In this document: positions 33,004 to 60,510 of the stretch, in pieces | Layout: every line of letters begins with the position of its first letter | Numbering within the stretch: position 1 is the first letter of the stretch | Assembly (NCBI GenBank): GCA_012031145.1 | Contig: JAAUUH010000004.1 | Coordinates: 182 to 64,181, forward strand | From: Oscillatoriales cyanobacterium SM2_2_1 | GTDB taxonomy: Bacteria; Cyanobacteriota; Cyanobacteriia; Pseudanabaenales; Pseudanabaenaceae | Direction of reading: 5' to 3' | DNA length: 64,000 nucleotides | Position numbers and translations under genes: made by a program | The notes under the pieces: generated by a model | Told to the model about the DNA's origin: nothing | Seen by the model: only the letters and a program-made list of their open reading frames with translations | Databases searched by the model: none

Positions 33004-33633
33004 CTAGTTATTAATACAACCTTGTTCCCCCTGAGACCTCACGCGCAGAGCACCCAAGATAGTTTGTCTTGCGATGCAGCGCCTCCGCCCGCTTTCAGGT
33101 TGATGCCTTAAAACAAGTCGTTCTCCATCCCCATCTCCATCTGCGGTAGTTCCAACATCTACTCCGCCATTGTTAAATTCCGCCTCTCTGACTCCTCGGC
33201 TATCATATTTTGATACAAAAACACCGCCACCACCATCTATCAAGTTCTTAGTAGAGGGAACTCCCGTATCTGCAATTAGCACGTTGGCAGGTAAATCTTG
33301 CCAAGGCACATTGGCATAGCGCGCATCGTCATCGGGCACCCCAGGTAGAGTACTAACAACTGCAAACTGAGCATTGCGCCCATCGGGACGATTACGAAAC
33401 CGCACCTGCCAACTGCGTTTCTCTTTTTTGGCATTGCTCTGGGCAGTGCTTAGACTCCGTACAACCGTGATTTGGGCATCGCTCAATCTTTGATTGATCT
33501 GAAAACCAATAAAGTTGGGAGCCACGATCGCCGTTAGCACCCCCACAATGATCAACACCACCAAAGCTTCTAGCAGCGTAAAGCCAGAGTTACGCCGCCG
33601 GTTTCGACTAAACAACCTAAAATTCATCCGCAT
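33004..33633 (-). CDS. prepilin-type pseudopilin (GspH/FimT-like; HpsD position)
   Basis: Class III signal RRRNSG|FTLLEALVVLIIVGVLTAIVAPNF with Glu+5. GGAG lies upstream of the ATG. Confidence 0.8.
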   Translation of the reverse strand: MRMNFRLFSRNRRRNSGFTLLEALVVLIIVGVLTAIVAPNFIGFQINQRLSDAQITVVRSLSTAQSNAKKEKRSWQVRFRNRPDGRNAQFAVVSTLPGVPDDDARYANVPWQDLPANVLIADTGVPSTKNLIDGGGGVFVSKYDSRGVREAEFNNGGVDVGTTADGDGDGERLVLRHQPESGRRRCIARQTILGALRVRSQGEQGCINN

Positions 33634-33653: not shown

Positions 33654-35036
33654 CTAGCTATCAATGTTAAACAATCCCCGCCCAAGAACCGTCGTGCTGC
33701 CCGTCACCAACTCCGCCGAATTTTGTCCGCTTTGCCTAAAGTTAATGTTTGGCTGCAACCGCACCCGATAATTAGCACGAATCCAAATCCGCGCCGAGGT
33801 TTGGTTGGGCCTCCCGGCATTTGCTATACAGACATAGAAACTTGTATAGGTGCCTCGGGCAGCGCCGCCACTGATGACCCTTGCAAACCTTGGGTCAGCG
33901 TTTTGCTCAAACTGCCCCGGAATCCTTTGAGCGATGTGAGTTGAAGGATCGGCAGGGTTGTAGTCTTCCACCCCAACCCCTCGGTTGGGATCGGAGCAAT
34001 CTTGATTAACAGTAATAATGTTGGGAGCACTGCCAGTCGTCGTGTTTGGCCCCACATCAACGCGCACAGCATTGTTGGTTGCACCCCCAGTATCCTGACC
34101 ATTGACGTAGGGTGAGTCGTCAACGAAGTCGAGGAGAACCTCAGCTGGATTGCCAGTGCCATAGCTCCCAGAGGGTCGCCATCTGTTGAATTTTTCCTTG
34201 AGGGTTCCGGCAGAAGCGAGATCGAAAGGGGCAAATCCGTCATCAGAATTCACGATAAACCCACTCCTGCGAAAAATCTCATTCTGCAGGAGGGTTGCCC
34301 CAGAACCAGGTGGAAGGACAGCACTAGGTGGGGTGGGACAGCCTGGCGCTGCTCCACTCCGCGCAGCGTCGATGGATGAACCGTTAAAGCAAGACCATGG
34401 AACTCCATCCCTGAGTTCAAAACGAATGATGCGTGCAGCGTTGGACCATACGCCAGGTGTATCAAAATCTGCGGGGTTATCGCTATCCTTTTGCAAATAA
34501 TAGGACACTAATGAATACCTGAACTTTCCTCTCCCCTTAGGAACCCCATCTGGGGTGCGGCAATCCGAGTCATTGGCACCAGCGTTTTGGTTGTTGTACT
34601 CCAAGCAGCCAGCCAGCCATGAGGTTCCGTCAATACGTCTTACCCGAGTCGTAGGCGACAAAAAAGATCGCTTCCAGAACACCAATATGGGGATGCGATT
34701 TACTCTGTCAAAGAACCGCAACTCGTCAAGAATTCCGCCATTCGCAGCATTTCTCGATACAGCATCTGCATCGTAGATGTAAACTGCTTCCTGAAGATCA
34801 TCGGCAATGAATCGCAGAGCCGACTGCACTTCATCCTGAGTGGCAGCTTTGGCTTCCTCTATTCGGTTTGACTCCAAAATACTGGTTAAAAAAGTCAGGA
34901 GCACTGCCACCAGCAAAGATGCAATTAATGCCGAGACCAGTAGTTCCAACAGAGTGAACCCTCGGCTTCCGCGTCTGCCAAACCATACCCTCCGGCGACC
35001 GAGCCATCCCGCAAATTGCCTTACCGATGACATCAT
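33654..35036 (-). CDS. large prepilin-type pseudopilin (PilW/GspJ-like size; HpsC position)
   Basis: GRRGSRG|FTLLELLVSALIASLLVAVLLTFL. 460 aa. GGAGG lies 8 nt before the ATG. Confidence 0.8.
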   Translation of the reverse strand: MMSSVRQFAGWLGRRRVWFGRRGSRGFTLLELLVSALIASLLVAVLLTFLTSILESNRIEEAKAATQDEVQSALRFIADDLQEAVYIYDADAVSRNAANGGILDELRFFDRVNRIPILVFWKRSFLSPTTRVRRIDGTSWLAGCLEYNNQNAGANDSDCRTPDGVPKGRGKFRYSLVSYYLQKDSDNPADFDTPGVWSNAARIIRFELRDGVPWSCFNGSSIDAARSGAAPGCPTPPSAVLPPGSGATLLQNEIFRRSGFIVNSDDGFAPFDLASAGTLKEKFNRWRPSGSYGTGNPAEVLLDFVDDSPYVNGQDTGGATNNAVRVDVGPNTTTGSAPNIITVNQDCSDPNRGVGVEDYNPADPSTHIAQRIPGQFEQNADPRFARVISGGAARGTYTSFYVCIANAGRPNQTSARIWIRANYRVRLQPNINFRQSGQNSAELVTGSTTVLGRGLFNIDS

Positions 35037-35051: not shown

Positions 35052-35741
35052 TTACCTGAGAACCACATCACGGGACACTTCACCACGGATAATTACCAAC
35101 GGGCAATTGCGATTGCCGAGTCTAGCGCCAAAGGTGGTGCCACTTTGTCCGCAAGCGCCACCAGATTCACCGCGTTGCAATGGCACAACCGTGCCCGTAA
35201 TGTTTGCGCCACCTGTAAAAGCATCGGCTCGATAGACCCGTGCCGCGACCTCAAAGGGATCACTATCAGTTCCGGTCGGACGAAAGCTGGGATCGGGAAA
35301 CACAGAATCGTTATACATGGGTTGAATCACAAGATCCTGCGGATCGTCGGTGCTGAACCCATTGCCATTGGTGTCAACACGAACGCCGGGCAAATTATTG
35401 AGTGCCGCAGGGGCAATGCCACCACCTCCCCCCGGTGCTGGCACTTGATCAAAAAAGTAGGAGTTCGTTGCTGAAGTCACACGAATTGTTGGTTGGGTAC
35501 GCAACTGTGACAGGGTAATCGCGCGGCTGGTCACCCGGTCAATAAAGCCACGCCCGGCACTGGTAGCCAAATCTACCCGTCGTGCTTGCACTCGAGCGCT
35601 GACAGAAATCGCCACTAGGGGCGTAATTGCCACCAAGAGCACACTAACCACTACCGAGGCCACCAACGATTCAAGAATTGTAAAACCGTCAGTCGGTCTA
35701 CAGCACTTCAACATCAGCAACAGGAATTTTTTTCGATCCAT
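35052..35741 (-). CDS. prepilin-type pseudopilin (HpsB position)
   Basis: CCRPTDG|FTILESLVASVVVSVLLVAITPLV with Glu+5. 229 aa. Confidence 0.8.
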   Translation of the reverse strand: MDRKKFLLLMLKCCRPTDGFTILESLVASVVVSVLLVAITPLVAISVSARVQARRVDLATSAGRGFIDRVTSRAITLSQLRTQPTIRVTSATNSYFFDQVPAPGGGGGIAPAALNNLPGVRVDTNGNGFSTDDPQDLVIQPMYNDSVFPDPSFRPTGTDSDPFEVAARVYRADAFTGGANITGTVVPLQRGESGGACGQSGTTFGARLGNRNCPLVIIRGEVSRDVVLR

Positions 35742-35836: not shown

Positions 35837-38800
35837 CTAGTTGACGTAAGTGGTTGGGAAACAATTATTAGGTAGATCCCGCTGACCTGCGAGCGCCCGC
35901 CTTGTGTAGTTGGTGAACTTGGTTAGGGTGCGCTGGGGTCGGGTAAGGTTGACTTCGGCATTGACGCCCGTTCCTGAGGCTGTCCCGGGGTTGGCAGCGT
36001 TGGGATTGACCGGCTCTGCCGCACAGAGCAAGGTGGCTATGTAGGGGTCGTTGCGGTCAGTTTCCCTAAAGAAATCACTGAAGTTAGGCAAGTCCCTAGA
36101 GAACCGTTCTGCAAAGCGATCTGGTGCCTGGGTCAGCAAGCCGACATCGAAGCCCCAGTTCCGTTGTGGCGGGTTGTAATACGGCAACCGCAATAGGGCG
36201 AAGGATCGATAAATGGCATCGGGAGTTGCATCATCGTTATCAAAGTCGCCGAGACGGTCGTTAAACGTGTTGTTGTCAAGGGCATTGACGAATAATGACT
36301 CTGGCACGACGGTGTTTTCTGGTGCATTGGGATCGCGATAGGGACCAGTTTGGGCAAAGGGAGCTGTGTCGAATTGGCTACGGGTGTTCTGCAGGAAGCC
36401 CCCCGCAATGTTCAGCGGTACCTCTGTCCAGTTTTCCATGAGACGAACAAAGTTCGGTAAGCCACCTCCAGTTTCACCGGTGATATTCCCTGTGGCACCA
36501 ATACCCGTAACCGTAGCGAACGATCTGGAGGGCGTTGTACCAGCCACAGTATAGATATTGATCTCACTGGCAACAGCTCGCTGGTTCCACAGACCATTAG
36601 TTGCCGAGGGCAATCCACTAATTGTCCGGGCATCATTATTAATAATTGGAGCAAGGTTCTGAGTGCCGGTATTGGTAGTGTCACCTGGACTAGACGGCAC
36701 ATGGAAATGAACCACTGGCACAGTGAGCGGCTCGTTGGTCGTGGTCATAGCCACAGCCACCGTATTTTCGTTCACATCGCTAGAACGGTAGCCTAGGAAT
36801 CGCACACCGCGCAGAGCAACTCTGTCCGTAATGGTGAGGGTTGTGGTTTCTGCAATTGTGTTGCCACCGGCGAGTGTGGTGCGACCAATGAAGTTGCCAG
36901 CCAAGATGGATGGCGTTGCAGGAACTGAGTTGAACTCCTCGTAGGTAAGCTCGGTGGTTCCGAGGGTCACGGTTGGGTTAGTGAGCTTGTAGAGGTTAAT
37001 ACTTCCCGGAGACAGGACAGGGATGACTCTATTGGCAGTGAGTTCTGCAGCGTCATCGAAGTCTGTAACCCGTGTTAACGGACTACCAGGGCCAGGGTAA
37101 GTATAAACCCCGTTTTGTGTGCGGTTATTCTGTCCCGTCAGCAGAATGCGGATACCGCCACTAGGAGCAGTTGCTCCTGTACCATCGGCAAGGTTGACGT
37201 CTGCAGTCTCTACTGCTGCCACAGGCTCAGGCAGAAGGGTGAAGTTTTTAGGCGCGCCGGGAACGGCGGGAGAGCCGAAGGGGAAGGGGTCGTTACTGAG
37301 CTTAAAGAAGCGGTTGGCACTGCTCCCCTCGAAGACACGCACAGTCACACCCTGAACCGCATTGGTGGCACTCTCATCGAAGTCAGCAGCAGGAACTGCG
37401 GCAGACCCAGCACTTTCGAAAATGTAGATGCCGTTTTCAGCCGGAGCGGACTGGTCTTTCACCAAAAAGCGATCGCCCGAAGTCAGTGGTACGCCATCGA
37501 CCGTTGCTGGCATTAGGGCCAAGTTGACATTGACCGTTGTCGCCACACGAACATCCCGCAGGGTTGGCTGGGCAGGAATGCTTTCTAAAGCAACGGCATC
37601 GGTACTATTCAGGCGCGGAGTAAACCAAAATACATTGTTGGGTTCTACTCCCTCTAACTTCAGGCGCACCCCCGAAAGCTCGAGGTCTTCTGTGGGACTG
37701 CCTTGGAGGATAAATACCGGACTTGGGCCACCATTGGGATTTGCCCGCAGAATGATGGTAACTCCACGGAACTGGTCATTGGAGCCGCCCGTATCTGGGT
37801 CGCCGGAGTTGTAACGGGTAGGAACCGTCGTATTGGCATCAATTGTCGTGTTGTTGAGCACGCCGCCAATAGTGCGAGTACCAGTGGAAACAACACCTAA
37901 CCCGTCACGGCTGAAATTATAGACATTGACGCGATTATTGCTGAAGGTATTGGCAGCGGTGAGGATAATCTCCCTTGGTTGGGCAGAATCGCCTTCAATT
38001 TGCACGTTCGCCGCGCGGTTCAGGGGCTCGGTGATAGGTACCGTTGGGCGAACGAGTTCAATACCTTGGAACGTGCCAGCGGGTTGGGCTGGGTCAAACG
38101 CTGGGGTGCTTAGGGTGCTAAAGAACTGAACAATCGCCGCCCGGGGATTACCCACATTAGTCGGGCACGAGTTAGTAGTAAAGTCTTGCCGCGCGACATT
38201 ACCACCCAAGGTTGTCTGGCGAGATTGATACTTCTGGGATCTGCCCGTTGCACCGCAGATGGCAAAGGCCGAAGCAGGACGAATGCTGACATCAGCAGGA
38301 TATAGGGGGTTGGCAGGTAAGTTGAGGTTGGCGATTACCGCGCCGGGCGTCGAACCCACAGGTTCGGGACGCTCACAGGTGGCATCCACAAATCCATCCC
38401 GGCTGTCGATACACACCGTGTCGGGCAGCACAAGGCGATCGGGGTGCAAGGGGTTGTTGGAATTATTGCTACCCGTTTGGGGCCAGGCACTCTGGAACAG
38501 ATACAGAGCACGGCCGCCATCCCAATTGAATCCCGCGGTGTCGCTTTCTCCGGGGTAGTTGCTTCGACTAGTGGTGCGGAACCAGAGGGCGCGATCGCTG
38601 AATTCAGGATAGGTATTCGTCATCCCCGGCAGCATGGGCAAGCGACCTGAATCATTGTTAGAGACAATCACCGGCGAGTTGGGCGGTGGCAGTTGGGAGT
38701 TATAAACCGCTTGGCTAGTGGTATCGAAGTCGTTGAATGATCGACCAAAGAGCGATCGAATGGGGAACAGAGGTGTGGTGCCGTCCGCAGGAACCGGGCT

Positions 38801-41800
38801 GGTACTGCCCACCGCGCATCGTGTGGTGCCGCTGTTGGGCGCACCTTGGTAATTGATCTGCGTTTCTGCCGCCCCATCACAGTTGGGGTAGCGGCTGGGC
38901 ACCGCTGAACGCTCAGCAAAGGGATAGGCCGCTGCGGGCTGGGGCAACAGGGTGCCAAAGGGCAGCCCAAGCACACCAATCCGGGGTGGTGCAGTCATCC
39001 CAAACACCGGCGGTGTAATGGAACCAGTAAAAATGGGCCCAGGCGTCGGCGAGGGCGACGGGGAGGGCGACGGGCTGGGGCTAGGGCTGGGTGACGGGCC
39101 AGGGGGGCAGGGCGGATAGGTCGCCGTAATCGTCTGAACGGTGTTGAAGTTTGCCACTGGTGCCGCTGGAGGTGGCTGCAACCCGTCATCGCTGTTTGAA
39201 CCAGGATTGCTGAACGGAACGGCTGACCCAACTGGCGTGAAAATATCTGGGGCACCAGGAATATCATTGACCGTGCCTGGGCAATTTCTACCTGGGAAGC
39301 GATTACGTCTCCGGGGTGTGTTCGTTCCTGACTGGGCGGCCGTGCCGTTTGCCTGGGTGATTCGCGCATCCCGGCGGGTTTCCGCTTCCACTGGAGTAAT
39401 TTCGGCATCGGCGTTGGGCACAACCCCCACTAGGCGCAGCCGGAAGTCTTCGTTGTTTTCCTGGAAGCTATCCCGCACCACCAGCACATCCACCTCGGCA
39501 GAGGTGGCTCCAACGGGAATTTCTAGGAGTTGACAGCCATTCGCGGGCGTCAGAGTCGGGCAAATCCTCGTGCCGGGGGTGCCCGTACTATTGGTGGCAT
39601 AGACCGCTGGCAGGTAGTCTACGCCCACACCGCCGGGCGTGGTGTCATTGGAGGGGGTACCGTCGGCATTGACCGGTTGATTGGTGCCTGTGAGTGCTCC
39701 AGATTCGAGATTTTGGTTTGCTGGCTTAGCGCGGTTACCCGTGGTTAAAGACTCTGTCCGCACGGCAACGGGAATGGGCACGGTGCGGGTCACAGGGGGA
39801 GCGCCCGCAGGGAGGAAGGTCTCAATCCTGAACCGGAACCGGCGATAGGTAGCAGTGTTGTCTTGTCCGGGAGCATTATTGGTGCCATCCCCAGTCCCAG
39901 TCCCACCGACGACATTACGTGCGCCTCCGGTGAAATTCGGAGCGGGCAGGGCACCACTCAGCAGCGAAGGTACATTGCGCACGCGACCCTCTCTTTCCTC
40001 GAGACGGCTGCCAAAGTTATTTACCCTCACCTGTAACTTCACTGGCTCCACATCCTTGGCGCAGGGAACATCGCCATAGGCGCTGAAATTGTCGGTGGCA
40101 CTGACGGCGCGTCCCCTAAAGGGAGTTACTTGGCCGGCCCCAAAAATGTGGGGGTAGGTGTAGGCATTGGTTTGGTTGCCAGCATTGCCGTTATTCGCTT
40201 GGTTTCGTATGCCAATGGGAATAGGCCAGGCTCCTGGAAGGGCAGTACCTTCATCTTCCATGGGGCAACGGGCCGACATCACCAGGGCCTTGTTGCCATC
40301 CCCATAGATGTCATCAAAGCGCAGGAAGGCCAACCGCCGGGCATAGCGGTAGTCCGCTGGGGCAATGTAGCGGGGGCGGCTTCTCTGATCGGCTAAGGTT
40401 CCCCCATAGGTGACCGCATCGGGCAGGGCCGTGGTGCCCGCGCCTTCGGCTTTCCAATCATCAATTCGGCATTCGGAAACCGGGAGCTTGCTGCAAATTT
40501 CCATGCTGTACTCCCGGGTGAGAATGCGCCGCTGAATCGGCGTCACACCATTAGACAGGAAGGAAGACCGATTGCCTTGGGGGTAAAGGGTGCTTGTGCT
40601 GCCCGCGCCGCCATCGGAGTTGATGGTGGTGAGGAAGTTGGCGCTAGTGACAAAGCTATTGTCATAGAATCCTTTCCTGCGACGCTCAATCACATAGCTG
40701 CTGTCTTTGATTTTTTGAACTTGGTCATTGCGGCGATCATTCCATTGCAGGCTCGTGGAAGTGTCGGCATTGTTCCTGAGGTCATAATCCCCATCGCTGC
40801 GGTAACCTTCGCGATATTCGGCGGATTGGATGGAGAAGGCATCGGCTAAAACCGTTGCCGCCCGCCAGTTGTCTCCCTCAGTACATCCAGCAAACTGTCC
40901 AGGACGGCAGGCAAAGTTGGTATCGCGCGCCGCACGGCTATAGAAGTTTGACCAGTTGGCAGCCAAAACTTCGGTGAACTCTTCGTGGGTGTGGACGTTA
41001 AAGCCGGAGGCAGGCAAGACTGCTGCCTTACCGGTGTTGGTGGGGTTGGGCAAACCAACCGGACGGCGTTGGGCTTTGAGGTAGGTGGGAATGTTGCTGA
41101 CCAGAATCAGTCCCTTCTCCCCACGGGTGGTTTGGGTAAAAGCAGGCTGGGCATTGACACCGGTGCCATTGCGCCGCCAGAGGCTATAGCCATTGATCAT
41201 CCGAACGGCGCTGGGGCGACGGGTAGGGTCAAGCACAAAATCCGTGGCGCTCAACTCGGCGGTGCTGCTGGTGGTATCGGCTAGGGCATCTTCGCGGGTG
41301 GCATAGACAACGCCGCTGTAGGGCAGCATGTATTCAGTGGCAACACCATTACCACCGACAACAGCGTTGTTGGCCCCGGTGATAGTGGAGCTGCGTAATT
41401 TGTCGAGGTCGAGGTCGGTAGCCCGAATTTCCAGGGGTTCCCGTTGCTCGATCTGTAAATCATAAACATCTGCTCCATTGCTGGCTAGTCCTGAGCCAGT
41501 GCGAATCAAGGAGTTGCGATTGTCGCTGACGGTTCGGAGTTCCGGCCCATCCTGCACTGAGTAAGGGTACATATACTCATTGCGATTCAAGGCTTTTACC
41601 TCCCGTCCATCGAGAAAAGCAGACTCTTTAACTAGTCCATGGGGGAGCTCAGCGCTGTTGAGCACCGGCACAGCACCGGACTGGGGAGCAATGGTGCCGT
41701 CGGCGATTTGCAGGGCGCACAGGTTGGCATCAATGGTGGCTTGCTCGACGATGGTAAGGTTGGCATTGGCGAAGTTGCCGCCGTCGTCAAAAACTTTACG

Positions 41801-44800
41801 CAGAACCGCACGAAGGGGCTCGTTGGCAAAGCGACCATTGGGGAAGATGAGGTTGGCTTGATAGGCCAGGCGATCGGCGACACTTACGCCAGCGTTGGCG
41901 GGGTTTTCAGCGCCCGCAACGACACTGAATTGCCCCGTAGTTGCATTGAAAGTAGATGTAAGCGGGGGAAGGGCACCAGCAGTTAGTCCGACGTTGTAAA
42001 CAATGCCATTGTTGGATCGTCCGGTGGTGCGATCGACAATAGTTTCATCGTTATTGAGCACATCAGGTAAGTTGGGCCAGGGCAAACCCTGGCGGTTGAG
42101 TGCGGATGCTCTCAGTTGATTGGTGGCACTAATTGGCGTGAAGGGATTAGCAACATAGGAGTAGGAGGGATCGTAATAACTGCTGACACAAGCCAAAGGA
42201 CGTTGGTAGTCCGTGGGATTGGTGGGGTCAAAGGCATCAAACTTGTAGTGATAGATAGCCGATGCGCGCATTTGGAGGTCACCCTTGAGGGGTTCAGTTT
42301 CCGATGCTGTCATGGGCATATTATCGGGCCAAACGACAAAGTTGACCCGTGCCCGCTCGGCTTCAGTGGCGGTGACAGGAGCAATACCGGCAAATCGCGC
42401 CTCATTAAAGGGAGTATTGGGGTTGTCCTTAGGTGCGGCTGATTCGTCAATGTCGTTTGTTGCGGGGCTGTCAAGCAGATTGGTGTGATAGCGCGGCAGA
42501 AAGGTGCCCGGAGCATCTACAGTGGTAACGCCGGGTGCACGCAAGCGGGTATAGATCCCAGCGTTGGTGATGACCCTCAAGCCGCCAAAGGTGGGGGTGG
42601 TGTTAGGGGCAGAGTTGCGGGGTTCAGCAGGATCAAGGGGATCCGCAGGGTTAGAGGCTGCCGAAATTTCCCAGAAGCCGCCGCGAGAGACTTCCCCAAG
42701 AACGTTACCCGGCTCAGCTTGGGTGACACGGTACCGGGGGACAGGCAAAGGATTGGCGGGGTTGGTGGGATCATTCCAGAAAACGTTGTTGGCCGTGGAG
42801 ACGGGGGCGCGGTTGTCTTCAATTTCGGAGCGGTTGGTGGCGAAGAAGATGCGTCCGCCATTGTTGCGGAGCCATCGGGCAGGAAGATTGTTGCCCACAT
42901 TAACGCGATCGCCCAAAAGACGCTCTTGATCGGTGCGCAGACGGGTGGGATCGTTGGCCGGCAAATCGAGCAAAGCTCCGGAAACATTAACTTGCAGCGC
43001 CGGGTTGCCAGCGACCAAGCCAGCCCCATCAAGGGCTGCCCCAAAGGCTGCGGCAGCGCGGGTAAGGGAGCCGCCATTTTCATCGAAAGGAAAGGCCCAC
43101 TGAATCGGGGGACGCAGTTCAGTGCCCCCATCAATAGTGAGCACCGTCAGAAGGGGGGCGGGGTCGGTGGGGCAGATCAAATCTAGACCGGTGGCGGCAT
43201 TCCCATCCGCATCGCAGGTGCTTAGGTTGGTTTGGGCTTGGGTAAAGGAAACCTCACGACTAGGAACTTTGCGGGTGCGCTCTCGGAAGTAGGCTTGGAG
43301 GGCACGCCTACGGGCTTGATCAAAGCCCGATTGGGTGGTTAAACCTTCATCGAAGACGGCATCGGCGATAAATTTGCGAACGGATTCTGGGTCGGGATAA
43401 GTAACATCGGTGGTTCGTGGGCGGGCTCCTCCACCAGGAAGGTTCACGGTTCCACCCCCCCGGGCGATCGCCGCTCGCACAAGCACTTCAATCCGCCGAC
43501 TAAATTCAGCATCGTTGCTCAGTACATCCCGACCGCGGTTGGTGTTATTGTCAACAACACTCTGTCTGGCAGCGGTAAAGGGTTGACGTCCACCGCCTGT
43601 GGTCTCAGGATTGGCGTTATCTCTCAAAAACAGGTCAAATCGAATCGCGCCCGTGTCACCGGTTGCCGATGTCGCATCCCCAATAACCGCATTGCCAGCT
43701 ACTAGCACCTTGGCATTTTCAGGACGGTAATAACAGGAGCCTGCTGCGGTACCTGTGGTGGTGGGGTTATCGCTAGCGCTAACTTGGTAGAATGTGACTT
43801 CGTTGCCAGCGCCTGTATTGGCGCGAACCAGCAAGTTACCTGAAGTGTACACCCGACCATTGAGGCGGAAGGCAGGAGTACGAGTGATTTCAAGGTCGCT
43901 TTCAAAGAATACGGCGTTGTTGTTAAGGGGGAACCGTTCCCGGTCTTGCTGCAATTCAAGGGCGCTGATGGAAGAAATGCCCCGGTACTGCTCGTAGTTG
44001 TTGGCATCAGCGGCGCGGCGTCCAGCAATAGAAGTGGGATCGTTGTTGCCCGAGGGGATGATGGATCCGGGGTCAGTAATGGGTACAGTGACCGCATAGG
44101 CAAAAAATGCTTTTTTCAGCCGGCCGTTGGAGTCGATCCAGCCCTCGGTGGTAGCAACGTTGGCGCTAGCGCCAACACAACCGTCCGTAAGCGCCCCCTG
44201 ATCCTGGGGCAGCCCCCGGGCTTCCATGATCGATGTGGCGCGGGAGGAAGCTGTGGCAATGGGTCGGGCACGGTAGATGATGCTGTACAGACCGAAGGAG
44301 TCGAAGCGGCCGTTACCATCGGTGTCGATGGGGAACTTCCAAGCGGTGGTTAGGGCTTCGGTGTTGGCGACATTATTGGGGTCAACACGGACACTTGCAG
44401 CGTTGCCATCAACATTAGGATCGGCAATGACGAGGCGAATCTCATCATCGTAGGTATAGCGGGCATCTTGAAGGACATCATTAAGGACGAGGTCGCTGGG
44501 GGTAGTCCGAGGGAGCCGGTCATCGGCTAGCAGTTGGGCAATCTTGGCCCGGGCCCGGTCAATCAGGGGTGTATTGGTGGAGCGGAGCACCTGCTCAATT
44601 CGGGAATTGGCAGCGGTCTCGGCGCGTTGGGCGGAGTTGGAAACAACGGTGACCACGGCCAGGGTTGTGACGGCAGTTACCAAAACCACGACGGGCAACA
44701 CAAACCCAGCTTGATTGGCATTCTTACGGCGGGAGGAACTCTGGAGGTCGCGGACAAGGCGGCGGCTAATCCGGAAGGGGCTGCCCGTCCTAATTAACCA

Positions 44801-44866
44801 TTTGCGCAACTTAGCGACAAAGTCAGCTAAAAATTGGAGGAGATTGCGATTTTGACGAGATGACAT
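35837..44866 (-). CDS. hpsA: giant (3009 aa) extracellular protein with pilin-like N-terminal segment; HpsA-like by gene order
   Basis: One uninterrupted 9030-nt ORF. N-terminus ...RRKNANQAG|FVLPVVVLVTAVTTLAVVTVVSN. Rich in N/T/G/P/A, with a (PS)n linker, one Calx-beta-like segment and two repeated modules. It is followed by three pseudopilin genes, as in the Nostoc punctiforme hps locus. The family call is from synteny and memory, not from a search. Confidence 0.55.
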   Translation of the reverse strand: MSSRQNRNLLQFLADFVAKLRKWLIRTGSPFRISRRLVRDLQSSSRRKNANQAGFVLPVVVLVTAVTTLAVVTVVSNSAQRAETAANSRIEQVLRSTNTPLIDRARAKIAQLLADDRLPRTTPSDLVLNDVLQDARYTYDDEIRLVIADPNVDGNAASVRVDPNNVANTEALTTAWKFPIDTDGNGRFDSFGLYSIIYRARPIATASSRATSIMEARGLPQDQGALTDGCVGASANVATTEGWIDSNGRLKKAFFAYAVTVPITDPGSIIPSGNNDPTSIAGRRAADANNYEQYRGISSISALELQQDRERFPLNNNAVFFESDLEITRTPAFRLNGRVYTSGNLLVRANTGAGNEVTFYQVSASDNPTTTGTAAGSCYYRPENAKVLVAGNAVIGDATSATGDTGAIRFDLFLRDNANPETTGGGRQPFTAARQSVVDNNTNRGRDVLSNDAEFSRRIEVLVRAAIARGGGTVNLPGGGARPRTTDVTYPDPESVRKFIADAVFDEGLTTQSGFDQARRRALQAYFRERTRKVPSREVSFTQAQTNLSTCDADGNAATGLDLICPTDPAPLLTVLTIDGGTELRPPIQWAFPFDENGGSLTRAAAAFGAALDGAGLVAGNPALQVNVSGALLDLPANDPTRLRTDQERLLGDRVNVGNNLPARWLRNNGGRIFFATNRSEIEDNRAPVSTANNVFWNDPTNPANPLPVPRYRVTQAEPGNVLGEVSRGGFWEISAASNPADPLDPAEPRNSAPNTTPTFGGLRVITNAGIYTRLRAPGVTTVDAPGTFLPRYHTNLLDSPATNDIDESAAPKDNPNTPFNEARFAGIAPVTATEAERARVNFVVWPDNMPMTASETEPLKGDLQMRASAIYHYKFDAFDPTNPTDYQRPLACVSSYYDPSYSYVANPFTPISATNQLRASALNRQGLPWPNLPDVLNNDETIVDRTTGRSNNGIVYNVGLTAGALPPLTSTFNATTGQFSVVAGAENPANAGVSVADRLAYQANLIFPNGRFANEPLRAVLRKVFDDGGNFANANLTIVEQATIDANLCALQIADGTIAPQSGAVPVLNSAELPHGLVKESAFLDGREVKALNRNEYMYPYSVQDGPELRTVSDNRNSLIRTGSGLASNGADVYDLQIEQREPLEIRATDLDLDKLRSSTITGANNAVVGGNGVATEYMLPYSGVVYATREDALADTTSSTAELSATDFVLDPTRRPSAVRMINGYSLWRRNGTGVNAQPAFTQTTRGEKGLILVSNIPTYLKAQRRPVGLPNPTNTGKAAVLPASGFNVHTHEEFTEVLAANWSNFYSRAARDTNFACRPGQFAGCTEGDNWRAATVLADAFSIQSAEYREGYRSDGDYDLRNNADTSTSLQWNDRRNDQVQKIKDSSYVIERRRKGFYDNSFVTSANFLTTINSDGGAGSTSTLYPQGNRSSFLSNGVTPIQRRILTREYSMEICSKLPVSECRIDDWKAEGAGTTALPDAVTYGGTLADQRSRPRYIAPADYRYARRLAFLRFDDIYGDGNKALVMSARCPMEDEGTALPGAWPIPIGIRNQANNGNAGNQTNAYTYPHIFGAGQVTPFRGRAVSATDNFSAYGDVPCAKDVEPVKLQVRVNNFGSRLEEREGRVRNVPSLLSGALPAPNFTGGARNVVGGTGTGDGTNNAPGQDNTATYRRFRFRIETFLPAGAPPVTRTVPIPVAVRTESLTTGNRAKPANQNLESGALTGTNQPVNADGTPSNDTTPGGVGVDYLPAVYATNSTGTPGTRICPTLTPANGCQLLEIPVGATSAEVDVLVVRDSFQENNEDFRLRLVGVVPNADAEITPVEAETRRDARITQANGTAAQSGTNTPRRRNRFPGRNCPGTVNDIPGAPDIFTPVGSAVPFSNPGSNSDDGLQPPPAAPVANFNTVQTITATYPPCPPGPSPSPSPSPSPSPSPSPTPGPIFTGSITPPVFGMTAPPRIGVLGLPFGTLLPQPAAAYPFAERSAVPSRYPNCDGAAETQINYQGAPNSGTTRCAVGSTSPVPADGTTPLFPIRSLFGRSFNDFDTTSQAVYNSQLPPPNSPVIVSNNDSGRLPMLPGMTNTYPEFSDRALWFRTTSRSNYPGESDTAGFNWDGGRALYLFQSAWPQTGSNNSNNPLHPDRLVLPDTVCIDSRDGFVDATCERPEPVGSTPGAVIANLNLPANPLYPADVSIRPASAFAICGATGRSQKYQSRQTTLGGNVARQDFTTNSCPTNVGNPRAAIVQFFSTLSTPAFDPAQPAGTFQGIELVRPTVPITEPLNRAANVQIEGDSAQPREIILTAANTFSNNRVNVYNFSRDGLGVVSTGTRTIGGVLNNTTIDANTTVPTRYNSGDPDTGGSNDQFRGVTIILRANPNGGPSPVFILQGSPTEDLELSGVRLKLEGVEPNNVFWFTPRLNSTDAVALESIPAQPTLRDVRVATTVNVNLALMPATVDGVPLTSGDRFLVKDQSAPAENGIYIFESAGSAAVPAADFDESATNAVQGVTVRVFEGSSANRFFKLSNDPFPFGSPAVPGAPKNFTLLPEPVAAVETADVNLADGTGATAPSGGIRILLTGQNNRTQNGVYTYPGPGSPLTRVTDFDDAAELTANRVIPVLSPGSINLYKLTNPTVTLGTTELTYEEFNSVPATPSILAGNFIGRTTLAGGNTIAETTTLTITDRVALRGVRFLGYRSSDVNENTVAVAMTTTNEPLTVPVVHFHVPSSPGDTTNTGTQNLAPIINNDARTISGLPSATNGLWNQRAVASEINIYTVAGTTPSRSFATVTGIGATGNITGETGGGLPNFVRLMENWTEVPLNIAGGFLQNTRSQFDTAPFAQTGPYRDPNAPENTVVPESLFVNALDNNTFNDRLGDFDNDDATPDAIYRSFALLRLPYYNPPQRNWGFDVGLLTQAPDRFAERFSRDLPNFSDFFRETDRNDPYIATLLCAAEPVNPNAANPGTASGTGVNAEVNLTRPQRTLTKFTNYTRRALAGQRDLPNNCFPTTYVN

Positions 44867-44975
44867 AGAGTTCCCCTAGTTCCTACCTGAGATCTGGTTT
44901 GATACTACCCACGACTGACAAGAAATTATCACGAATTAAAATTTTGACTCGGTGCTGGCGATAACTTTGGTTGGG

Positions 44976-56046: not shown

Positions 56047-57684
56047 GTGCAATACTTGGCAGAAATCCAGAAAACTCAAGCTGCTTTTGGGTTGGGGGGA
56101 AAAGTTCAGGTTCGTCTACTCGCCAGAAATGCCGGGGAGAACAACTGGCAGCCCATTGGCAATGATCAGCTAATTCAAATACAGGATCCTAGCCAAGTAC
56201 AGGATCTCAAAGACGGGCAACTTGTCATTACTGACATTACGGGCAGTAATGTTGTCCAGAATGTGACCGAAGCCTCCAAGCGTATCGTCGGCATCCTGCA
56301 GAATTTTTCCCGCGCCCAAGAGCGCTTTCGGGCTGCGGAAGAAGAGGTTGAGCAATGGAAGCAGTCCTTAAACTACCAAAGCCAAGAATTGCATCGCCGT
56401 GAGCAGGAACTGGAAAATCGCGAGATTGAGTTAGAAACCCTTGAAGCTAAACGCCAAGAAGCCGAGGAGATCCTGGCGCGCCTAGAAACCGAACGGGGCT
56501 CCTATGAGTCTATGAGAGCTGCCGCCGCAGGGCTAAGTGCCGATCAGGCCAACCAATTGATGGGGATCGTCAATGATCTTTCTGAAAGCCTCGGCTCCAA
56601 CGGCTCTGCGCCTATGGATGTGGGTGAAATCCTCCAGGTTATTTATGAGCGGCAAAACATCCTCAACGGTTTTTGGCAGCAGCTTGACTCAATGCGGCAA
56701 GAGGTTGAACAGCGCCGTCGCGAGTTGGACCAGTCCCAGGAGTCCTATCAGCAGCGGTTGCAGCAGTGGCAACAGGCTCAGAGTGTCTTGGCAGATGCCC
56801 AAGCCGAACTCAAGGCTCAACGCAATATCCTTAAACTGCAAGAGAATAATCTTGCCCTTGGTAAAAATCAGCTTGCTGTTCAAGACCAACTCCACCAAAA
56901 GGCCGTGGCTGTAATTGAAGCCCTTGGCGGCACTCCCAATGAAGTCCTGTCCCCAGAAGAAGTGCAGCGCCTAGAGGAGTTGCCCATTGAAGAGTTGGAG
57001 TCGGCGGTTCATAACCTCCAAGCGGAATTTGACAAACTGGCGAACTACGTCAGTGCCCAAGAAGATGAGCTGGCGTCCCTAGAGGGCGAAATTGCCGATA
57101 TTCAGAGCCAAATAGCTAAAATCAACGAATTTGAGTGCCTTGAGCTGGAGAGTAGCAAAGAGTTTGCTGAGGAGCAGTACAAGCTTCTCGAGGATAGTGT
57201 TTCTGGAATGCGCCGCAGTATGCAGGAGCGTCAGGCCGCACTTAGTCAGCGCCGTGCCATTCTTGACCGCCGCAAAGGTAATGGCTCTGGCGATGATCCC
57301 TTTCAAAATCTACTCCCCCTATTGCAGCAAATCGATGCCCAGCGATCGCATCAGCGTCAAGAGCTAGAAAAGATGGAGCAGCAAATTGATGCCGTTCGCA
57401 ACTACATTCAGCAGCAACAAGATTCCCTTAATCGTCAAATCCAGGATCACCAAGCCCAGCATCAAGAGCTGCAGAGCACAGAACTGAGCGTGCGGGATTT
57501 GCAGGCATTCGTCGCTGAACTTAGCGGTAAGGTTGCCATTCAGGAGCAACTCCTGCGCCCCGTCCAAGATATTGTTGATGTGATTAGACCGAAACTAGAA
57601 TTCCTTTCCAACGGCTCCTCAACCAGCAGTAGCCATGACCACCTCGTTCAAGAACTGCGTTCCATAATTTCCGCCATGGTCTAG
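56047..57684 (+). CDS. hmpF: HmpF-like coiled-coil protein (type IV pilus motility/taxis)
   Basis: GTG start. The N-terminus VQYLAEIQKTQ...VRLLARNAGENNWQPI...ILQNFSRAQERFRAAEEEVEQWKQSLNYQSQEL matches my memory of HmpF and its Synechocystis homologue. The remaining ~430 aa are Q/E/L/R-rich heptad coiled coil. Confidence 0.55.
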   Translation: MQYLAEIQKTQAAFGLGGKVQVRLLARNAGENNWQPIGNDQLIQIQDPSQVQDLKDGQLVITDITGSNVVQNVTEASKRIVGILQNFSRAQERFRAAEEEVEQWKQSLNYQSQELHRREQELENREIELETLEAKRQEAEEILARLETERGSYESMRAAAAGLSADQANQLMGIVNDLSESLGSNGSAPMDVGEILQVIYERQNILNGFWQQLDSMRQEVEQRRRELDQSQESYQQRLQQWQQAQSVLADAQAELKAQRNILKLQENNLALGKNQLAVQDQLHQKAVAVIEALGGTPNEVLSPEEVQRLEELPIEELESAVHNLQAEFDKLANYVSAQEDELASLEGEIADIQSQIAKINEFECLELESSKEFAEEQYKLLEDSVSGMRRSMQERQAALSQRRAILDRRKGNGSGDDPFQNLLPLLQQIDAQRSHQRQELEKMEQQIDAVRNYIQQQQDSLNRQIQDHQAQHQELQSTELSVRDLQAFVAELSGKVAIQEQLLRPVQDIVDVIRPKLEFLSNGSSTSSSHDHLVQELRSIISAMV

Positions 57685-57722
57685 GCCTAGTATGGCCTAG
57701 GCATACAAAGAGCGTTCGTCCC

Positions 57723-57750
57723 TTGACAATGCTTGTGATCGCTCTATAAT
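57723..57750 (+). promoter_or_regulatory. near-consensus sigma-70 promoter upstream of pilM
   Basis: TTGACA (57723-57728), a 16-nt spacer, then TATAAT (57745-57750). It is about 50 nt upstream of the pilM ATG. Confidence 0.5.
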
Positions 57751-57800
57751 CCGAGGCATTAACAGGCTGACCCCTAGCCCAGCAACTATCTGGAAAAAAT

Positions 57801-58916
57801 ATGTTTGGATTAAAACTCGGCGGTGGTTCCAAAAACGGCATCGGACTCGAAATTAATTCAGAGCGTGTCAACATTGTCCAATTGCGCCGCAAGGGGCAAT
57901 CCTCCTATAAGCTAGCAGCCTACGCGAGCGCCGAGCTCCCCGAAGGAGCAGTTCAAGAAGGTCGCATCAACGACCCTGTTGCCGTCGGTGAAACCATCCG
58001 TAGCCTGATGACCGAAAAGAAAATTAAAGCCAAAAATGTGGCCACTTCCGTTCCGGGGCGGGAAACCGTCAGCCGTTTAATTCGCCTGCCCTCAGAGATT
58101 CCCGATGCTGAGTTGAGGGAAATGGTGCTCAACCAAGAAGCCAGTCTCTATCTTCCCTTTCCCCGGGAAGATGCCGATGTCACTTACCAAAAACTGGGCA
58201 CAAACCTAGATGAGGATGGCATTGAGCGCACCGAAATTTTAATGGTAGCTACCCCCAAGGAAGTTACCGACAACTACCTGCAAGTTCTTGAGTATGCCCA
58301 GTTGAAACCCGATGTTATTGAAGTCAGCAGCTTCTCCCTGATTCGTTCCCTTCATAACGAACTCGTGCGTTTTAGTGGTGCTTCTGAAGCTGTTGCCGTG
58401 GTCGATATCGAGTGTGAAATGACCGAGGTCAATGTTACGGTTGATGGGGTACCCCAGTTTTCTCGCAGTATCCCCACGGGCACAGTGCAGATTCAAAATG
58501 CCCAACTGCGCGCCATGAACTTGCCGCCGAGACGCACCACCGATGCTGAATTACTTGGTAATATCTCTGTGCCTGTGCAAACCATGGACACCGCCGGACT
58601 GGCAGGAGGCATGTCAGGCAGCAGCCCCGGGGATGCCGCGGTGTTGAGGGTCGTTGGCGACCTTGCGGATGAATTGCGCCGTTCCATTGACTTTTACACC
58701 AACCAATCTTCTGGTTCGGATGTGGTGCAAATGTTCTTGGTTGGCCCCGGTGCATGTATTGATCAACTGGATGAATATCTCAGCCAAAGGCTAGGTATAG
58801 TGGCTCAGCCCATTGATCCCTTGGCAGCGCTTTCTGTCTCCGTTGATCGCGAACTTTCCAATGAGGAGCGATATGGCATGTCCATCGCCCTTGGTTTAGG
58901 TGTGAGAGAGGTGTAG
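57801..58916 (+). CDS. pilM: type IV pilus assembly protein PilM
   Basis: 371 aa with an actin-like ATPase fold pattern (IGLEINSERVNIVQLR...VVDIECEMTEVNV...LVGPGACI). First gene of the pilMNOQ order. Confidence 0.9.
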   Translation: MFGLKLGGGSKNGIGLEINSERVNIVQLRRKGQSSYKLAAYASAELPEGAVQEGRINDPVAVGETIRSLMTEKKIKAKNVATSVPGRETVSRLIRLPSEIPDAELREMVLNQEASLYLPFPREDADVTYQKLGTNLDEDGIERTEILMVATPKEVTDNYLQVLEYAQLKPDVIEVSSFSLIRSLHNELVRFSGASEAVAVVDIECEMTEVNVTVDGVPQFSRSIPTGTVQIQNAQLRAMNLPPRRTTDAELLGNISVPVQTMDTAGLAGGMSGSSPGDAAVLRVVGDLADELRRSIDFYTNQSSGSDVVQMFLVGPGACIDQLDEYLSQRLGIVAQPIDPLAALSVSVDRELSNEERYGMSIALGLGVREV

Positions 58917-58919
58917 TCC

Positions 58920-60397: not shown

Positions 60398-60510
60398 GGC
60401 GAATTGGGCATTTTTGTGTTGAAAAAACCCGACAGTGGTACAATCTGTGGCCAGATTACGCCATGTTCGGGTATTCACATTGGTAGAGTCGAGTGAGGAG
60501 TTTATTGACG

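What the first reader, a model, noticed from the sequence alone, without database searches (positions are those of the whole stretch)
44627..44866. The giant protein begins with a pilin-like head lacking Glu+5 (GspK/PilX style)
Seen: residues 1-53 are basic and hydrophilic (...LQSSSRRKNANQA). Then comes G54|FVLPVVVLVTAVTTLAVVTVVSN, which is Gly-Phe followed by a hydrophobic helix of about 22 residues. That is the layout of a prepilin leader, except that position +5 is Val rather than Glu. Established: in type II secretion and type IV pili, the minor subunit that caps the tip complex (GspK, PilX-type) is the one lacking Glu+5. It assembles with three other minor pilins. Inference: the 3009-aa protein could be the fourth, capping subunit of a four-pseudopilin initiation complex. 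In that case a ~2900-aa passenger would be displayed at the fibre tip, combining the roles that PilX and PilY1 play separately elsewhere. The long 53-aa leader is atypical and weakens the idea. A plain signal-anchor is the alternative.
Basis: inference. Interest (0 to 1): 0.7.

Follow-up and report, generated by a model that had tools for sequence, protein, structure and literature searches.

The report
HpsA giant pilin-like cap protein
The 3009-residue protein is the cyanobacterial motility protein HpsA; its N-terminus looks like a prepilin signal lacking Glu+5, next to three ordinary minor pilins, and recent papers already propose that this family caps the pilus tip.

Summary
Residues 1-53 form a basic leader. 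They are followed by G54|FVLPV and the only hydrophobic helix in the protein, with Val at +5.

The protein is an HpsA orthologue (NCBIfam NF038301, 1117 bits against a cutoff of 400). Directly downstream lie three prepilins that carry Glu+5 (HpsB-, HpsC- and HpsD-like).

Across about 150 family representatives:
- G-F-[V/I]-L-P-T is almost invariant.
- Position +5 is never acidic.
- The leader of about 50 residues is a conserved family trait.
- The helix is the best-conserved part of the N-terminal 470 residues.

In 29 of 30 informative genomes, three Glu+5 prepilin genes follow hpsA.

Direct pilin membership is weak:
- The only hits are sub-threshold and in register (Pfam PilX_N and GspG).
- Foldseek found no match for two AlphaFold models.
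- hhalign found no similarity to HpsB, HpsC or HpsD.

Slr2018/PilA12 was called PilX-like with a hydrophobic +5 in 2017 and 2020. HpsA-like proteins were classed as 'PilX_EPS' caps replacing PilY1 in a 2026 preprint.

Cleavage by PilD and tip location remain untested. The conserved long leader is the one feature the papers read here do not discuss.

The parts
35837..44866 (-). hpsA, 3009 aa, giant HpsA / 'PilX_EPS'-type protein
   Evidence: NCBIfam NF038301 (equivalog) scores 1117.5 bits against a cutoff of 400. Residues 32-1530 match profile positions 25-1222. Residues 2698-2953 match profile positions 1283-1486. Pfam gives no hit.
44705..44866 (-). Residues 1-54: basic leader ending in Gly54, the putative -1 position of a prepilin peptidase site
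   Evidence: 13 K/R against 2 D/E. The Gly is invariant in 139 aligned homologues and sits at a median position of 50. The leader pattern is conserved, for example R39 in 89%. AlphaFold predicts helices 3-27 and 30-45, with a low-confidence loop at 46-57.
44639..44704 (-). Residues 55-76: F+1 V L P V+5 followed by the hydrophobic helix; no Glu+5
   Evidence: This is the only hydrophobic segment in the protein. Conservation in 139 aligned homologues is F 100%, L 100% and P 99%; position +5 is T in 94% and never acidic. Mean column conservation over residues 54-81 is 0.77, against 0.53 for the sheet region. The family consensus aligns to Pfam PilX_N positions 1-46 at E 0.005-0.013, below threshold.
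44528..44638 (-). Residues 77-113: rest of one long helix (56/57-113), as long as a pilin alpha-1
   Evidence: Both AlphaFold models show a single helix spanning 56/57-113. The R-S-F-D-R block is conserved in the family (R77 97%, S78 95%, R81 99%); this window has N77.
43913..44527 (-). Residues 114-318: antiparallel beta-strand region after the long helix (putative pilin-like sheet, last strand missing)
   Evidence: Strands 143-148, 171-180, 190-197, 244-262 and 301-311 appear in both models, with pLDDT of 75-89 in most of these strands. Foldseek against the PDB gave no significant hit.
36776..40276 (-). Residues 1531-2697: lineage-specific insert not covered by the HpsA profile
   Evidence: No NCBIfam match. 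It contains a (PS)n linker at about residues 1924-1945 and two tandem repeats of about 95 aa at about 2444-2640. Family length varies from about 1216 to 3904 aa.
35840..36775 (-). Residues 2698-3009: conserved C-terminal module with an invariant Cys pair (C2948, C3002)
   Evidence: Matches HpsA profile positions 1283-1486. C2948 is 99% and C3002 98% conserved in 111 full-length homologues, and the two bracket a loop of variable length. The shortest family members, about 1220 aa, keep the module.
35052..35741 (-). HpsB-like prepilin, 229 aa, G19|FTILE (Glu+5)
   Evidence: NF038303 HpsB at 113.6 bits, below the cutoff of 150. TIGR02532 prepilin motif at 19 bits, above its cutoff. Weak PilV hit.
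33654..35036 (-). HpsC-like prepilin, 460 aa, G26|FTLLE (Glu+5)
   Evidence: NF038304 HpsC at 197.2 bits against a cutoff of 200. Pfam N_methyl at 26.6 bits, above its cutoff. Weak GspJ and ComGF hits over the N-terminal helix.
33004..33633 (-). Third prepilin, in the HpsD position, 209 aa, G17|FTLLE (Glu+5)
   Evidence: Pfam N_methyl at 32.2 bits. Weak GspH, GspG and PilA hits over the N-terminal helix.
44902..44910 (-). J-box-like extended -10 element, GGGTAGTAT, 36-44 nt upstream of the hpsA ATG
   Evidence: It fits the conserved bases of the SigJ consensus GGGaAtacT. GGGNANNNT occurs upstream of hpsA in 52 of 73 loci, against 6 of 73 on the antisense control. The hits cluster 33-46 nt before the start codon.
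56047..62817 (+). hmpF-pilM-pilN-pilO-pilQ, the type IV pilus machine, about 11 kb from hpsA
   Evidence: HmpF NF038350 at 463 bits, PilM TIGR01175 at 309 bits, and secretin-family hits below their cutoffs for the 774-aa protein. The PilN- and PilO-position ORFs have no hit or only a weak one.

Best explanation
The gene is hpsA, the first gene of a conserved hpsA-B-C-D module.

Proposed mechanism:
1. The protein is inserted in the inner membrane with its N-terminus in the cytoplasm, held by its single hydrophobic helix.
2. The prepilin peptidase PilD cuts after Gly54, leaving Phe55 as the new N-terminus.
3. Lacking Glu+5, the mature protein can only take the top position of a filament.
4. There it caps a four-subunit priming complex with the three Glu+5 minor pilins: HpsB (PilV/GspI-like), HpsC (PilW/GspJ-like) and HpsD (FimT/GspH-like).
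5. That complex starts assembly on the PilMNOQ machine.
6. The bulk of the protein is probably an insertion inside a split pilin domain, closed by the conserved C-terminal module. It would be carried out at the tip as an adhesin or plug, linked to polysaccharide-dependent motility.

Shown here: family identity, the sequence features, their conservation, and the gene neighbourhood.

Inferred: cleavage, capping, tip display, the split-domain layout, and any role for the conserved leader of about 50 residues.
For: Family identity:
- HpsA equivalog at 1117 bits.

Site and helix:
- G-F-x-L-P is invariant, and no acidic +5 occurs in 153 sequences sampled from a family of 530 clusters at 50% identity.
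- The helix is the most conserved part of the first 470 residues, 0.77 against 0.53 and 0.44. A plain anchor does not need that.

Gene context:
- Three Glu+5 prepilins lie directly downstream here.
- The same is true in 29 of 30 genomes with enough downstream sequence.
- hmpF-pilMNOQ lies 11 kb away.

Sequence and structure hints:
- The only non-HpsA HMM hits of the family consensus are PilX_N (E 0.005-0.013) and GspG (E 0.03-0.07). Both align with the Gly at the cleavage position.
- PilX_N is the most frequent Pfam hit among members, 8 of 28.
- JGI names one homologue 'pseudopilin PulG'.
- AlphaFold gives a 57-residue helix followed by antiparallel strands, with a disordered stretch at the proposed cut site.
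- The N-terminal head and a C-terminal module with a Cys pair are constant while the middle varies.

Literature:
- Slr2018/PilA12 has a PilX-N domain by HHsearch at over 95% probability and a hydrophobic +5.
- Pilins with E5V are still cleaved and methylated.
- pilA12 mutants are non-motile.
- HpsA-like proteins are classed as PilX_EPS and proposed to replace PilY1.
- ComZ is a solved precedent: a tip pilin split by a beta-solenoid, and PilFind missed it.
Against: - No significant Foldseek match to any pilin, GspK or ComZ for either model. The best E-values were 0.3-1, and TTHA1219 pilin chains appear only at E 3-9.
- No sequence match to any PDB chain.
- hhalign against HpsB, HpsC and HpsD alignments gives a probability under 2%.
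- The N-methylation motif models do not hit.
- PilX_N scores 16-17 bits against a gathering score of 25.5, and does not hit this window's own sequence.
- The leader is 53 residues, conserved, and predicted helical. From general knowledge, known prepilin leaders are about 5-30 residues.
- Pro at +4 is unusual.
- The 2026 preprint placed HpsA proteins over 1280 aa in PilX_EPS by annotation, not by structure.
- The AlphaFold models lack the presumed last strand, and no coordinates were available to check the packing.
Confidence: 0.6

Rival explanations
1. Plain signal-anchor. The helix is an uncleaved type II membrane anchor. HpsA stays in the inner membrane, with a conserved cytoplasmic N-terminal domain of about 50 residues and a huge periplasmic part. 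It acts as a scaffold or regulator of polysaccharide export beside the pseudopilins, not as a filament subunit.
For: - The region of about 50 residues is conserved across the family and predicted as two amphipathic helices. That looks more like a functional domain than a disposable leader.
- No fold or profile similarity to pilins was found.
- The prepilin motif models do not hit.
- HpsA was described as a 'hypothetical membrane protein' in 2019.
Against: - An anchor does not explain an invariant Gly-Phe at the cytoplasmic edge of the helix, nor the total absence of an acidic +5.
- It does not explain a helix more conserved than the domains after it.
- It does not explain strict linkage to three Glu+5 prepilins.
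- It does not explain the in-register PilX_N and GspG hits.
- The proposed cut site is predicted to be disordered and accessible.
Confidence: 0.25
2. Short pseudopilus piston. HpsA is cleaved and caps a short, type II secretion-like pseudopilus built from HpsB, HpsC and HpsD. This pushes or guides hormogonium polysaccharide through PilQ. HpsA does not sit on long motility pili as an adhesin.
For: - hps genes are needed for polysaccharide secretion and motility in Nostoc. It is still unclear whether the polysaccharide leaves through PilQ.
- The weak hits of HpsC, HpsD and the HpsA consensus are to T2SS pseudopilins GspJ, GspH and GspG.
Against: - In Synechocystis, mutants that assemble pili only through the PilA9-12 ('EPS') set make fewer but longer pili. 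The pilA9-12 deletion mutant makes many short pili.
- A separate Wza-type exporter for the polysaccharide has been identified.
- Nothing in this window discriminates between the two models.
Confidence: 0.2
3. Released or surface-bound adhesin. PilD cuts the protein, but it is then released or attached to the cell surface as a giant adhesin. It uses the prepilin-like signal only for export and is not built into a filament.
For: The protein is very large, with variable, repeat-containing middle regions typical of adhesins. No Pfam or PDB relatives constrain the fold.
Against: - After cleavage the mature protein still carries a 22-residue hydrophobic N-terminus that must be buried in a membrane or a filament core.
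- The conservation of that helix and the one-plus-three gene module point to co-assembly.
Confidence: 0.08

Closest known systems
HpsA of Nostoc punctiforme (hps locus; NCBIfam NF038301 'hormogonium polysaccharide biosynthesis protein HpsA')
   Same: - The equivalog model is passed almost threefold.
- The N-terminal and C-terminal modules are the same.
- The gene order hpsA then three prepilins is the same.
- A similar J-box-like promoter element sits upstream.
   Different: - This protein is about twice as long, 3009 aa against about 1500-1650 aa in Nostocales.
- The extra length comes from an insert of about 1170 residues not covered by the profile. Such sizes are normal in the Pseudanabaena-like clade, 2500-3900 aa.
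- Position +5 is Val rather than the family's usual Thr, and Asn77 replaces the family's Arg.
- No hpsE-G type glycosyltransferase above its cutoff lies next to it.
Synechocystis Slr2018/PilA12 and the 'PilX_EPS' subfamily (bioRxiv 10.1101/130278, 10.1101/2020.12.15.422378, 10.64898/2026.02.12.705559)
   Same: - A large protein encoded with three minor pilins.
- A Gly-Phe site with a hydrophobic +5, and a PilX-N-like N-terminus.
- Proposed to cap the motility-pilus priming complex and to replace PilY1.
   Different: - Slr2018 is 773 aa. Gene order there is pilA9-10-11-12, whereas here the large gene comes first.
- Homology of this protein to Slr2018 was not tested here; it rests on the preprint.
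- HpsA-like proteins over 1280 aa were placed in that cluster by annotation only.
ComZ of Thermus thermophilus (tip pilin with a beta-solenoid inserted in the pilin fold)
   Same: - It lacks the usual pilin motifs and was missed by PilFind.
- It is encoded next to a partner minor pilin.
[quoted passage not shown]
- HpsA shows a constant head and tail with a variable middle.
   Different: - ComZ is several times smaller and serves DNA uptake.
- Foldseek did not retrieve ComZ or GspK with the HpsA models.
- The split-domain layout of HpsA is inferred, not shown.
GspK (T2SS) and PilX (Pseudomonas T4aP): cap subunits without Glu+5
   Same: - The only subunit of a four-member minor (pseudo)pilin set without Glu+5.
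- Non-polar or Thr residue at +5.
- Encoded with GspH/I/J-like partners.
   Different: - No GspK model hit and no Foldseek hit to 3CI0.
- The leader is about 50 residues and conserved.
- Pro sits at +4.
- The protein is about ten times larger.
PilY1/PilC tip adhesins
   Same: A proposed functional analogue: a large tip-associated plug or adhesin encoded with the minor pilins.
   Different: PilY1 has no pilin-type N-terminal helix and has its own C-terminal domain. No such domain was detected here.

Membership tests
HpsA (NCBIfam NF038301, equivalog) | Whole-protein HMM score above the curated cutoff of 400 bits | tested here: met
   1117.5 bits. N-terminal and C-terminal profile segments are both matched.
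HpsA (NCBIfam NF038301, equivalog) | Encoded directly upstream of the pseudopilin genes hpsB, hpsC and hpsD | tested here: met
   Three prepilin ORFs follow on the same strand. HpsB-like and HpsC-like are the best hits, though slightly below their cutoffs (113.6/150 and 197.2/200). The same arrangement is seen in 29 of 30 loci.
HpsA (NCBIfam NF038301, equivalog) | Required for hormogonium polysaccharide secretion and motility | not testable with these tools
   Known only from Nostoc genetics as cited.
Type IV pilin-like proteins (class III signal peptide) | Gly at -1 followed by about 20 hydrophobic residues at the N-terminus | tested here: met
   G54|F55 followed by 22 hydrophobic residues. 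The Gly and Phe are invariant in 139 aligned homologues.
Type IV pilin-like proteins (class III signal peptide) | Match to the N-terminal cleavage/methylation motif models (PF07963, TIGR02532) | tested here: not met
   No hit for HpsA. All three neighbouring prepilins hit these models.
Type IV pilin-like proteins (class III signal peptide) | Short leader (about 5-30 residues, from general knowledge) | tested here: not met
   The leader is 53 residues here. The family median Gly position is 50, interquartile range 49-53.
Type IV pilin-like proteins (class III signal peptide) | Cleavage and N-methylation by prepilin peptidase PilD | not testable with these tools
   Needs mass spectrometry of the mature N-terminus. 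E5V pilins are reported to be still processed.
Type IV pilin-like proteins (class III signal peptide) | Lollipop fold: a long N-terminal helix packed on an antiparallel beta-sheet | tested here: inconclusive
   AlphaFold gives helix 56/57-113 followed by 5-6 strands. Foldseek found no pilin at E<=0.001.
GspK / PilX-type cap minor pilin | No Glu (or other acidic residue) at +5 | tested here: met
   Val59 here. In the family, T in 141, V in 6, other non-acidic residues in 6, of 153.
GspK / PilX-type cap minor pilin | Match to the PilX_N (PF14341) or GspK family models | tested here: inconclusive
   PilX_N hits 8 of 28 members (best E 0.012) and the family consensus (E 0.005, 17 bits against a gathering score of 25.5), in register. 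It does not hit the window sequence itself. No GspK model hit.
GspK / PilX-type cap minor pilin | Encoded with three Glu+5 minor (pseudo)pilins of GspH/I/J or FimU/PilV/PilW type | tested here: met
   Three Glu+5 prepilins are adjacent. Weak GspJ, GspH and PilV hits are limited to the N-terminal helix. Synteny holds in 29 of 30 loci.
GspK / PilX-type cap minor pilin | Forms the tip complex with its partner minor pilins | not testable with these tools
   No multimer prediction is offered.
ComZ-like / cyanobacterial PilX (pilin fold split by a beta-solenoid) | [quoted passage not shown] | tested here: inconclusive
   Indirect only. The head and the C-terminal module with an invariant Cys pair are constant, while the middle is variable. 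No Foldseek hit to ComZ.
ComZ-like / cyanobacterial PilX (pilin fold split by a beta-solenoid) | Sequence homology to Slr2018/PilA12 | not tested
   Stated in the preprint. The Slr2018 sequence was not retrieved here.
PilY1/PilC tip adhesin | PilY1/PilC C-terminal domain | tested here: not met
   No Pfam family at E<=0.1 anywhere in the protein.

The most novel reading that the evidence does not exclude
The conserved, basic leader of about 50 residues, predicted as two helices, may be more than a disposable signal. It could be a working cytoplasmic module of the cap subunit. For example, it might dock the priming complex onto PilM, PilC, HmpF or the DnaK1-DnaJ3 system. PilD cleavage might then act as a checkpoint that releases the cap, and a peptide, only when the machine is ready. 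That would be a new kind of prepilin pro-peptide coupling pilus priming to polysaccharide-dependent motility.
Probability: 0.15. Interest if true: 0.6.

Novelty: new member of a known kind. Interest (0 to 1): 0.3.

Why it matters
It gives a likely job to the largest protein of a widely conserved cyanobacterial motility locus. A single subunit would both cap the minor-pilin priming complex and carry the tip adhesin or plug. In proteobacteria those roles fall to PilX and PilY1 separately.

The idea is already in recent literature, so this window adds an example rather than a discovery.

What the analysis adds at family level:
- The cut site is invariant and position +5 is never acidic.
- The helix is the best-conserved N-terminal part.
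- The one-plus-three gene module is near-universal.
- The head and tail are fixed around a middle that varies from about 1000 to 3700 residues.
- The leader of about 50 residues is conserved and unusually long.

Each of these can be tested directly.

Tried and rejected
- **Foldseek, first model.** Residues 1-600 (mean pLDDT 73.5) against the PDB gave nothing at E<=0.001.
- **Foldseek, second model.** Residues 1-1200 (mean pLDDT 67.8) again gave nothing. Only non-significant helix-on-sheet proteins and Thermus pilin TTHA1219 at E 3-9 appeared.
- **Profile search of PDB sequences.** Only chance hits.
- **Pfam.** No hit on the whole protein or on its N-terminus.
- **hhalign.** The HpsA N-domain alignment against HpsB, HpsC and HpsD alignments built from 38 loci gave a probability under 2%.
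- **Chimeric model.** A construct joining residues 1-318 to 2690-3009, with matched homologue chimeras, would have tested whether the C-terminus completes the pilin sheet.
- **Deep alignment.** An 81-sequence alignment was too large for the structure tool and was cut to 42 sequences.
- **Exact-sequence look-up.** Not on record.
- **Word-indexed homologue searches.** Only 8 and 18 hits, none short enough to model whole.
- **Alternative start codon.** A start that shortens the leader was rejected. Only TTG20 is available, M1 and S2 are conserved, and the promoter-like element lies just upstream of ATG1.
- **PilY1 homology.** Rejected: no such domain was found.

Full report
**What is there**

The ORF at 35837-44866 on the minus strand encodes 3009 residues. 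The finding's coordinates cover residues 1-80.

- That stretch is the only hydrophobic segment in the whole protein.
- No usable start codon lies between TTG20 and Gly54. An in-frame stop sits 12 nt upstream of ATG1.
- The leader is basic but partly amphipathic rather than simply hydrophilic.

**Identity**

The protein passes the NCBIfam equivalog model for HpsA at 1117 bits, against a cutoff of 400.

- Residues 32-1530 match the front of the profile.
- Residues 2698-2953 match its end.
- Residues 1531-2697 are an unmatched insert.
- Pfam finds nothing.

Three prepilins with a canonical site and Glu+5 follow on the same strand:
- 35052-35741, G19|FTILE, best hit HpsB.
- 33654-35036, G26|FTLLE, best hit HpsC.
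- 33004-33633, G17|FTLLE, in the HpsD position.

About 11 kb away lie hmpF and pilM, two ORFs in the pilN and pilO positions, and a secretin gene in the pilQ position. The window is therefore a cyanobacterial hpsA-D locus beside the type IV pilus machine. The closest genome is 'Cyanobacteria bacterium UBA999' at 90% identity. Pseudanabaenaceae come next at about 48%.

**Is the N-terminal pattern more than chance?**

An exhaustive HMMER search with residues 1-472 found 530 clusters at 50% identity. In the best 150, plus the first hits:

- The motif is G-F-[V/I]-L-P-T. Phe is at +1 in 149 of 153.
- Position +5 is Thr in 141, Val in 6, and never acidic.
- The Gly sits at a median position of 50, interquartile range 49-53.
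- In 139 aligned N-termini, Gly, Phe and Leu are 100% conserved and Pro is 99%.
- Mean column conservation is 0.77 for residues 54-81 and 0.68 for the rest of the helix. It is 0.53 for the strand region, 0.44 for the next domain and 0.38 for the leader.

A simple membrane anchor is not expected to be the best-conserved part of a protein, nor to keep an invariant Gly-Phe at its cytoplasmic edge.

The leader is also under constraint. M1 is 99% conserved, S2 85% and R39 89%, with a repeating basic and hydrophobic pattern. The 53-residue leader is therefore a family trait and not a start-codon artefact.

**Gene context elsewhere**

A scan of one genome per species found 476 loci, all but one of the 80 listed in genomes labelled cyanobacterial.

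- Of 30 loci with a complete hpsA and at least 3.5 kb downstream, 29 have three or more prepilin ORFs (G|F[T/S]xxE) directly after hpsA. The remaining locus has two.
- The module of one subunit without Glu+5 and three with it is thus conserved.
- HpsA length runs from about 1216 to 3904 residues. Nostocales have about 1500-1650 and the Pseudanabaena-like clade 2500-3900.

**Direct tests of pilin membership were weak or negative**

- The N-methylation motif models do not hit HpsA.
- Pfam PilX_N is the most frequent hit among 28 members (8 of 28, best E 0.012).
- PilX_N is the only Pfam hit of the family consensus: E 0.005-0.013, 16-17 bits against a gathering score of 25.5. The Gly aligns at profile position 2.
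- In NCBIfam the only pilin-type hit besides HpsA itself is GspG, E 0.03-0.07, also in register.
- PilX_N does not hit this window's own sequence.
- hhalign of the HpsA N-domain against HpsB, HpsC and HpsD alignments gave under 2% probability.

Two AlphaFold models agree on the N-terminal secondary structure. One covers residues 1-600 (pLDDT 73.5) and the other residues 1-1200 (pLDDT 67.8).

- Leader helices lie at about 3-27 and 30-45.
- A low-confidence loop covers 46-57.
- One long helix spans 56/57-113.
- Strands follow at 143-148, 171-180, 190-197, 244-262 and 301-311, and then short strands.

That topology fits a pilin lollipop. However, Foldseek against the PDB found no significant match to any pilin, GspK or ComZ. 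The PDB sequence search also found nothing. Structural membership is therefore inconclusive.

**Layout of the giant protein**

The extreme C-terminus is conserved and carries two nearly invariant cysteines, C2948 (99%) and C3002 (98%). They bracket a loop of variable length. The shortest full-length members, 1216-1252 aa, keep the same leader, the same G|FVLPT site and the same C-terminal Cys module.

A fixed head and tail around a variable middle is what a pilin domain split by an insertion would give. ComZ shows this layout in a solved structure, and it is reported for cyanobacterial PilX models.

**Comparison with the literature**

- In 2014 and 2019 HpsA was called functionally unknown or a hypothetical membrane protein.
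- A 2017 preprint named Slr2018 'PilA12', noted an unconventional N-terminus, and found the mutant non-motile.
- The 2020 preprint on Synechocystis minor pilins reported a PilX-N domain in Slr2018 (HHsearch over 95%) and a hydrophobic +5. It also recalled that E5V pilins are still cleaved and methylated.
- A February 2026 preprint classifies cyanobacterial pilins by predicted structure. It defines a 'PilX_EPS' subfamily homologous to HpsA and assigns HpsA-like proteins over 1280 aa to it by annotation. It proposes that the PilX solenoid replaces the PilY1 plug and acts as an adhesin.

None of these texts, as searched, discusses the long leader.

**Most likely mechanism**

Confidence is about 0.6.

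1. HpsA inserts with its N-terminus in the cytoplasm.
2. PilD cuts after Gly54.
3. The Glu+5-less mature protein takes the top of a four-subunit priming complex with HpsB, HpsC and HpsD on the PilMNOQ machine.
4. The protein's bulk is carried at the filament tip.

Shown here: identity, sequence features, conservation and synteny. Inferred: cleavage, capping, tip display and the split fold.

The main rival (about 0.25) is an uncleaved anchor with a functional cytoplasmic N-domain. A functional variant (about 0.2) is a short secretion-type pseudopilus for polysaccharide export rather than long adhesive pili.

**Verdict**

The gene is a new member of a known kind, so interest is modest (0.3). The conserved leader of about 50 residues is the feature most worth an experiment.

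**Side observation**

A J-box-like element, GGGTAGTAT, lies 36-44 nt upstream of the ATG at 44902-44910 on the minus strand. GGGNANNNT occurs upstream of hpsA in 52 of 73 loci, against 6 of 73 on the antisense control. The hits cluster 33-46 nt before the start. This supports ATG1 as the true start and suggests SigJ/SigF-type control, as in Nostoc.

Noticed in passing
window 44902-44910 (-): J-box-like extended -10 element, GGGTAGTAT, 36-44 nt upstream of the hpsA start. GGGNANNNT is present upstream of hpsA in 52 of 73 related loci, against 6 of 73 on the antisense control, mostly 33-46 nt before the ATG. This suggests SigJ/SigF-type control as in Nostoc.
   Followed up: partly
window 44705-44866 (-), residues 1-54: The long basic leader is conserved across the family (median length about 49) and is predicted as two amphipathic helices followed by a disordered cut site. 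It is not discussed in the papers read, and its role is unknown.
   Followed up: partly
window 35861-35863 and 36023-36025 (-), Cys3002 and Cys2948: Two nearly invariant cysteines (98-99% of 111 homologues) bracket a loop of variable length at the extreme C-terminus. This recalls the disulfide loop of type IV pilins.
   Followed up: partly
window 36947-37537 (-), residues ~2444-2640: Two tandem repeats of about 95 aa inside the lineage-specific insert (32% identity, E 1e-7), each with a G(D/I)R.L(V/L)..Q....NG(I/V)Y motif. No family match.
   Followed up: no
window ~39032-39097 (-), residues ~1924-1945: A Pro-Ser dipeptide run (PSPSPSPSPSPSPSPSPTP), probably a flexible linker in the middle of the insert.
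   Followed up: no
window 56047-62817 (+): hmpF (463 bits), pilM (309 bits), two ORFs in the pilN and pilO positions (no hit and a weak GspM hit), and a 774-aa secretin (pilQ position), about 11 kb from hpsA.
   Followed up: partly
window 47926-49368 and 49299-51443 (-): The SMC chromosome-segregation gene appears split into two overlapping ORFs of 714 aa and 480 aa that together make about one full SMC. This could be a frameshift, a sequencing error or a pseudogene.
   Followed up: no
window 44976-45569 (-): A 197-aa ORF with many hydrophobic segments lies directly upstream of hpsA on the same strand. It has no Pfam or NCBIfam match.
   Followed up: no
loci L002-L045 vs L046-L080: HpsA size is clade-specific: 2500-3900 aa in Pseudanabaena-like genomes and about 1500-1650 aa in Nostocales. 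The shortest full-length members are about 1216-1252 aa. JGI names one of them 'type II secretory pathway pseudopilin PulG'.
   Followed up: partly
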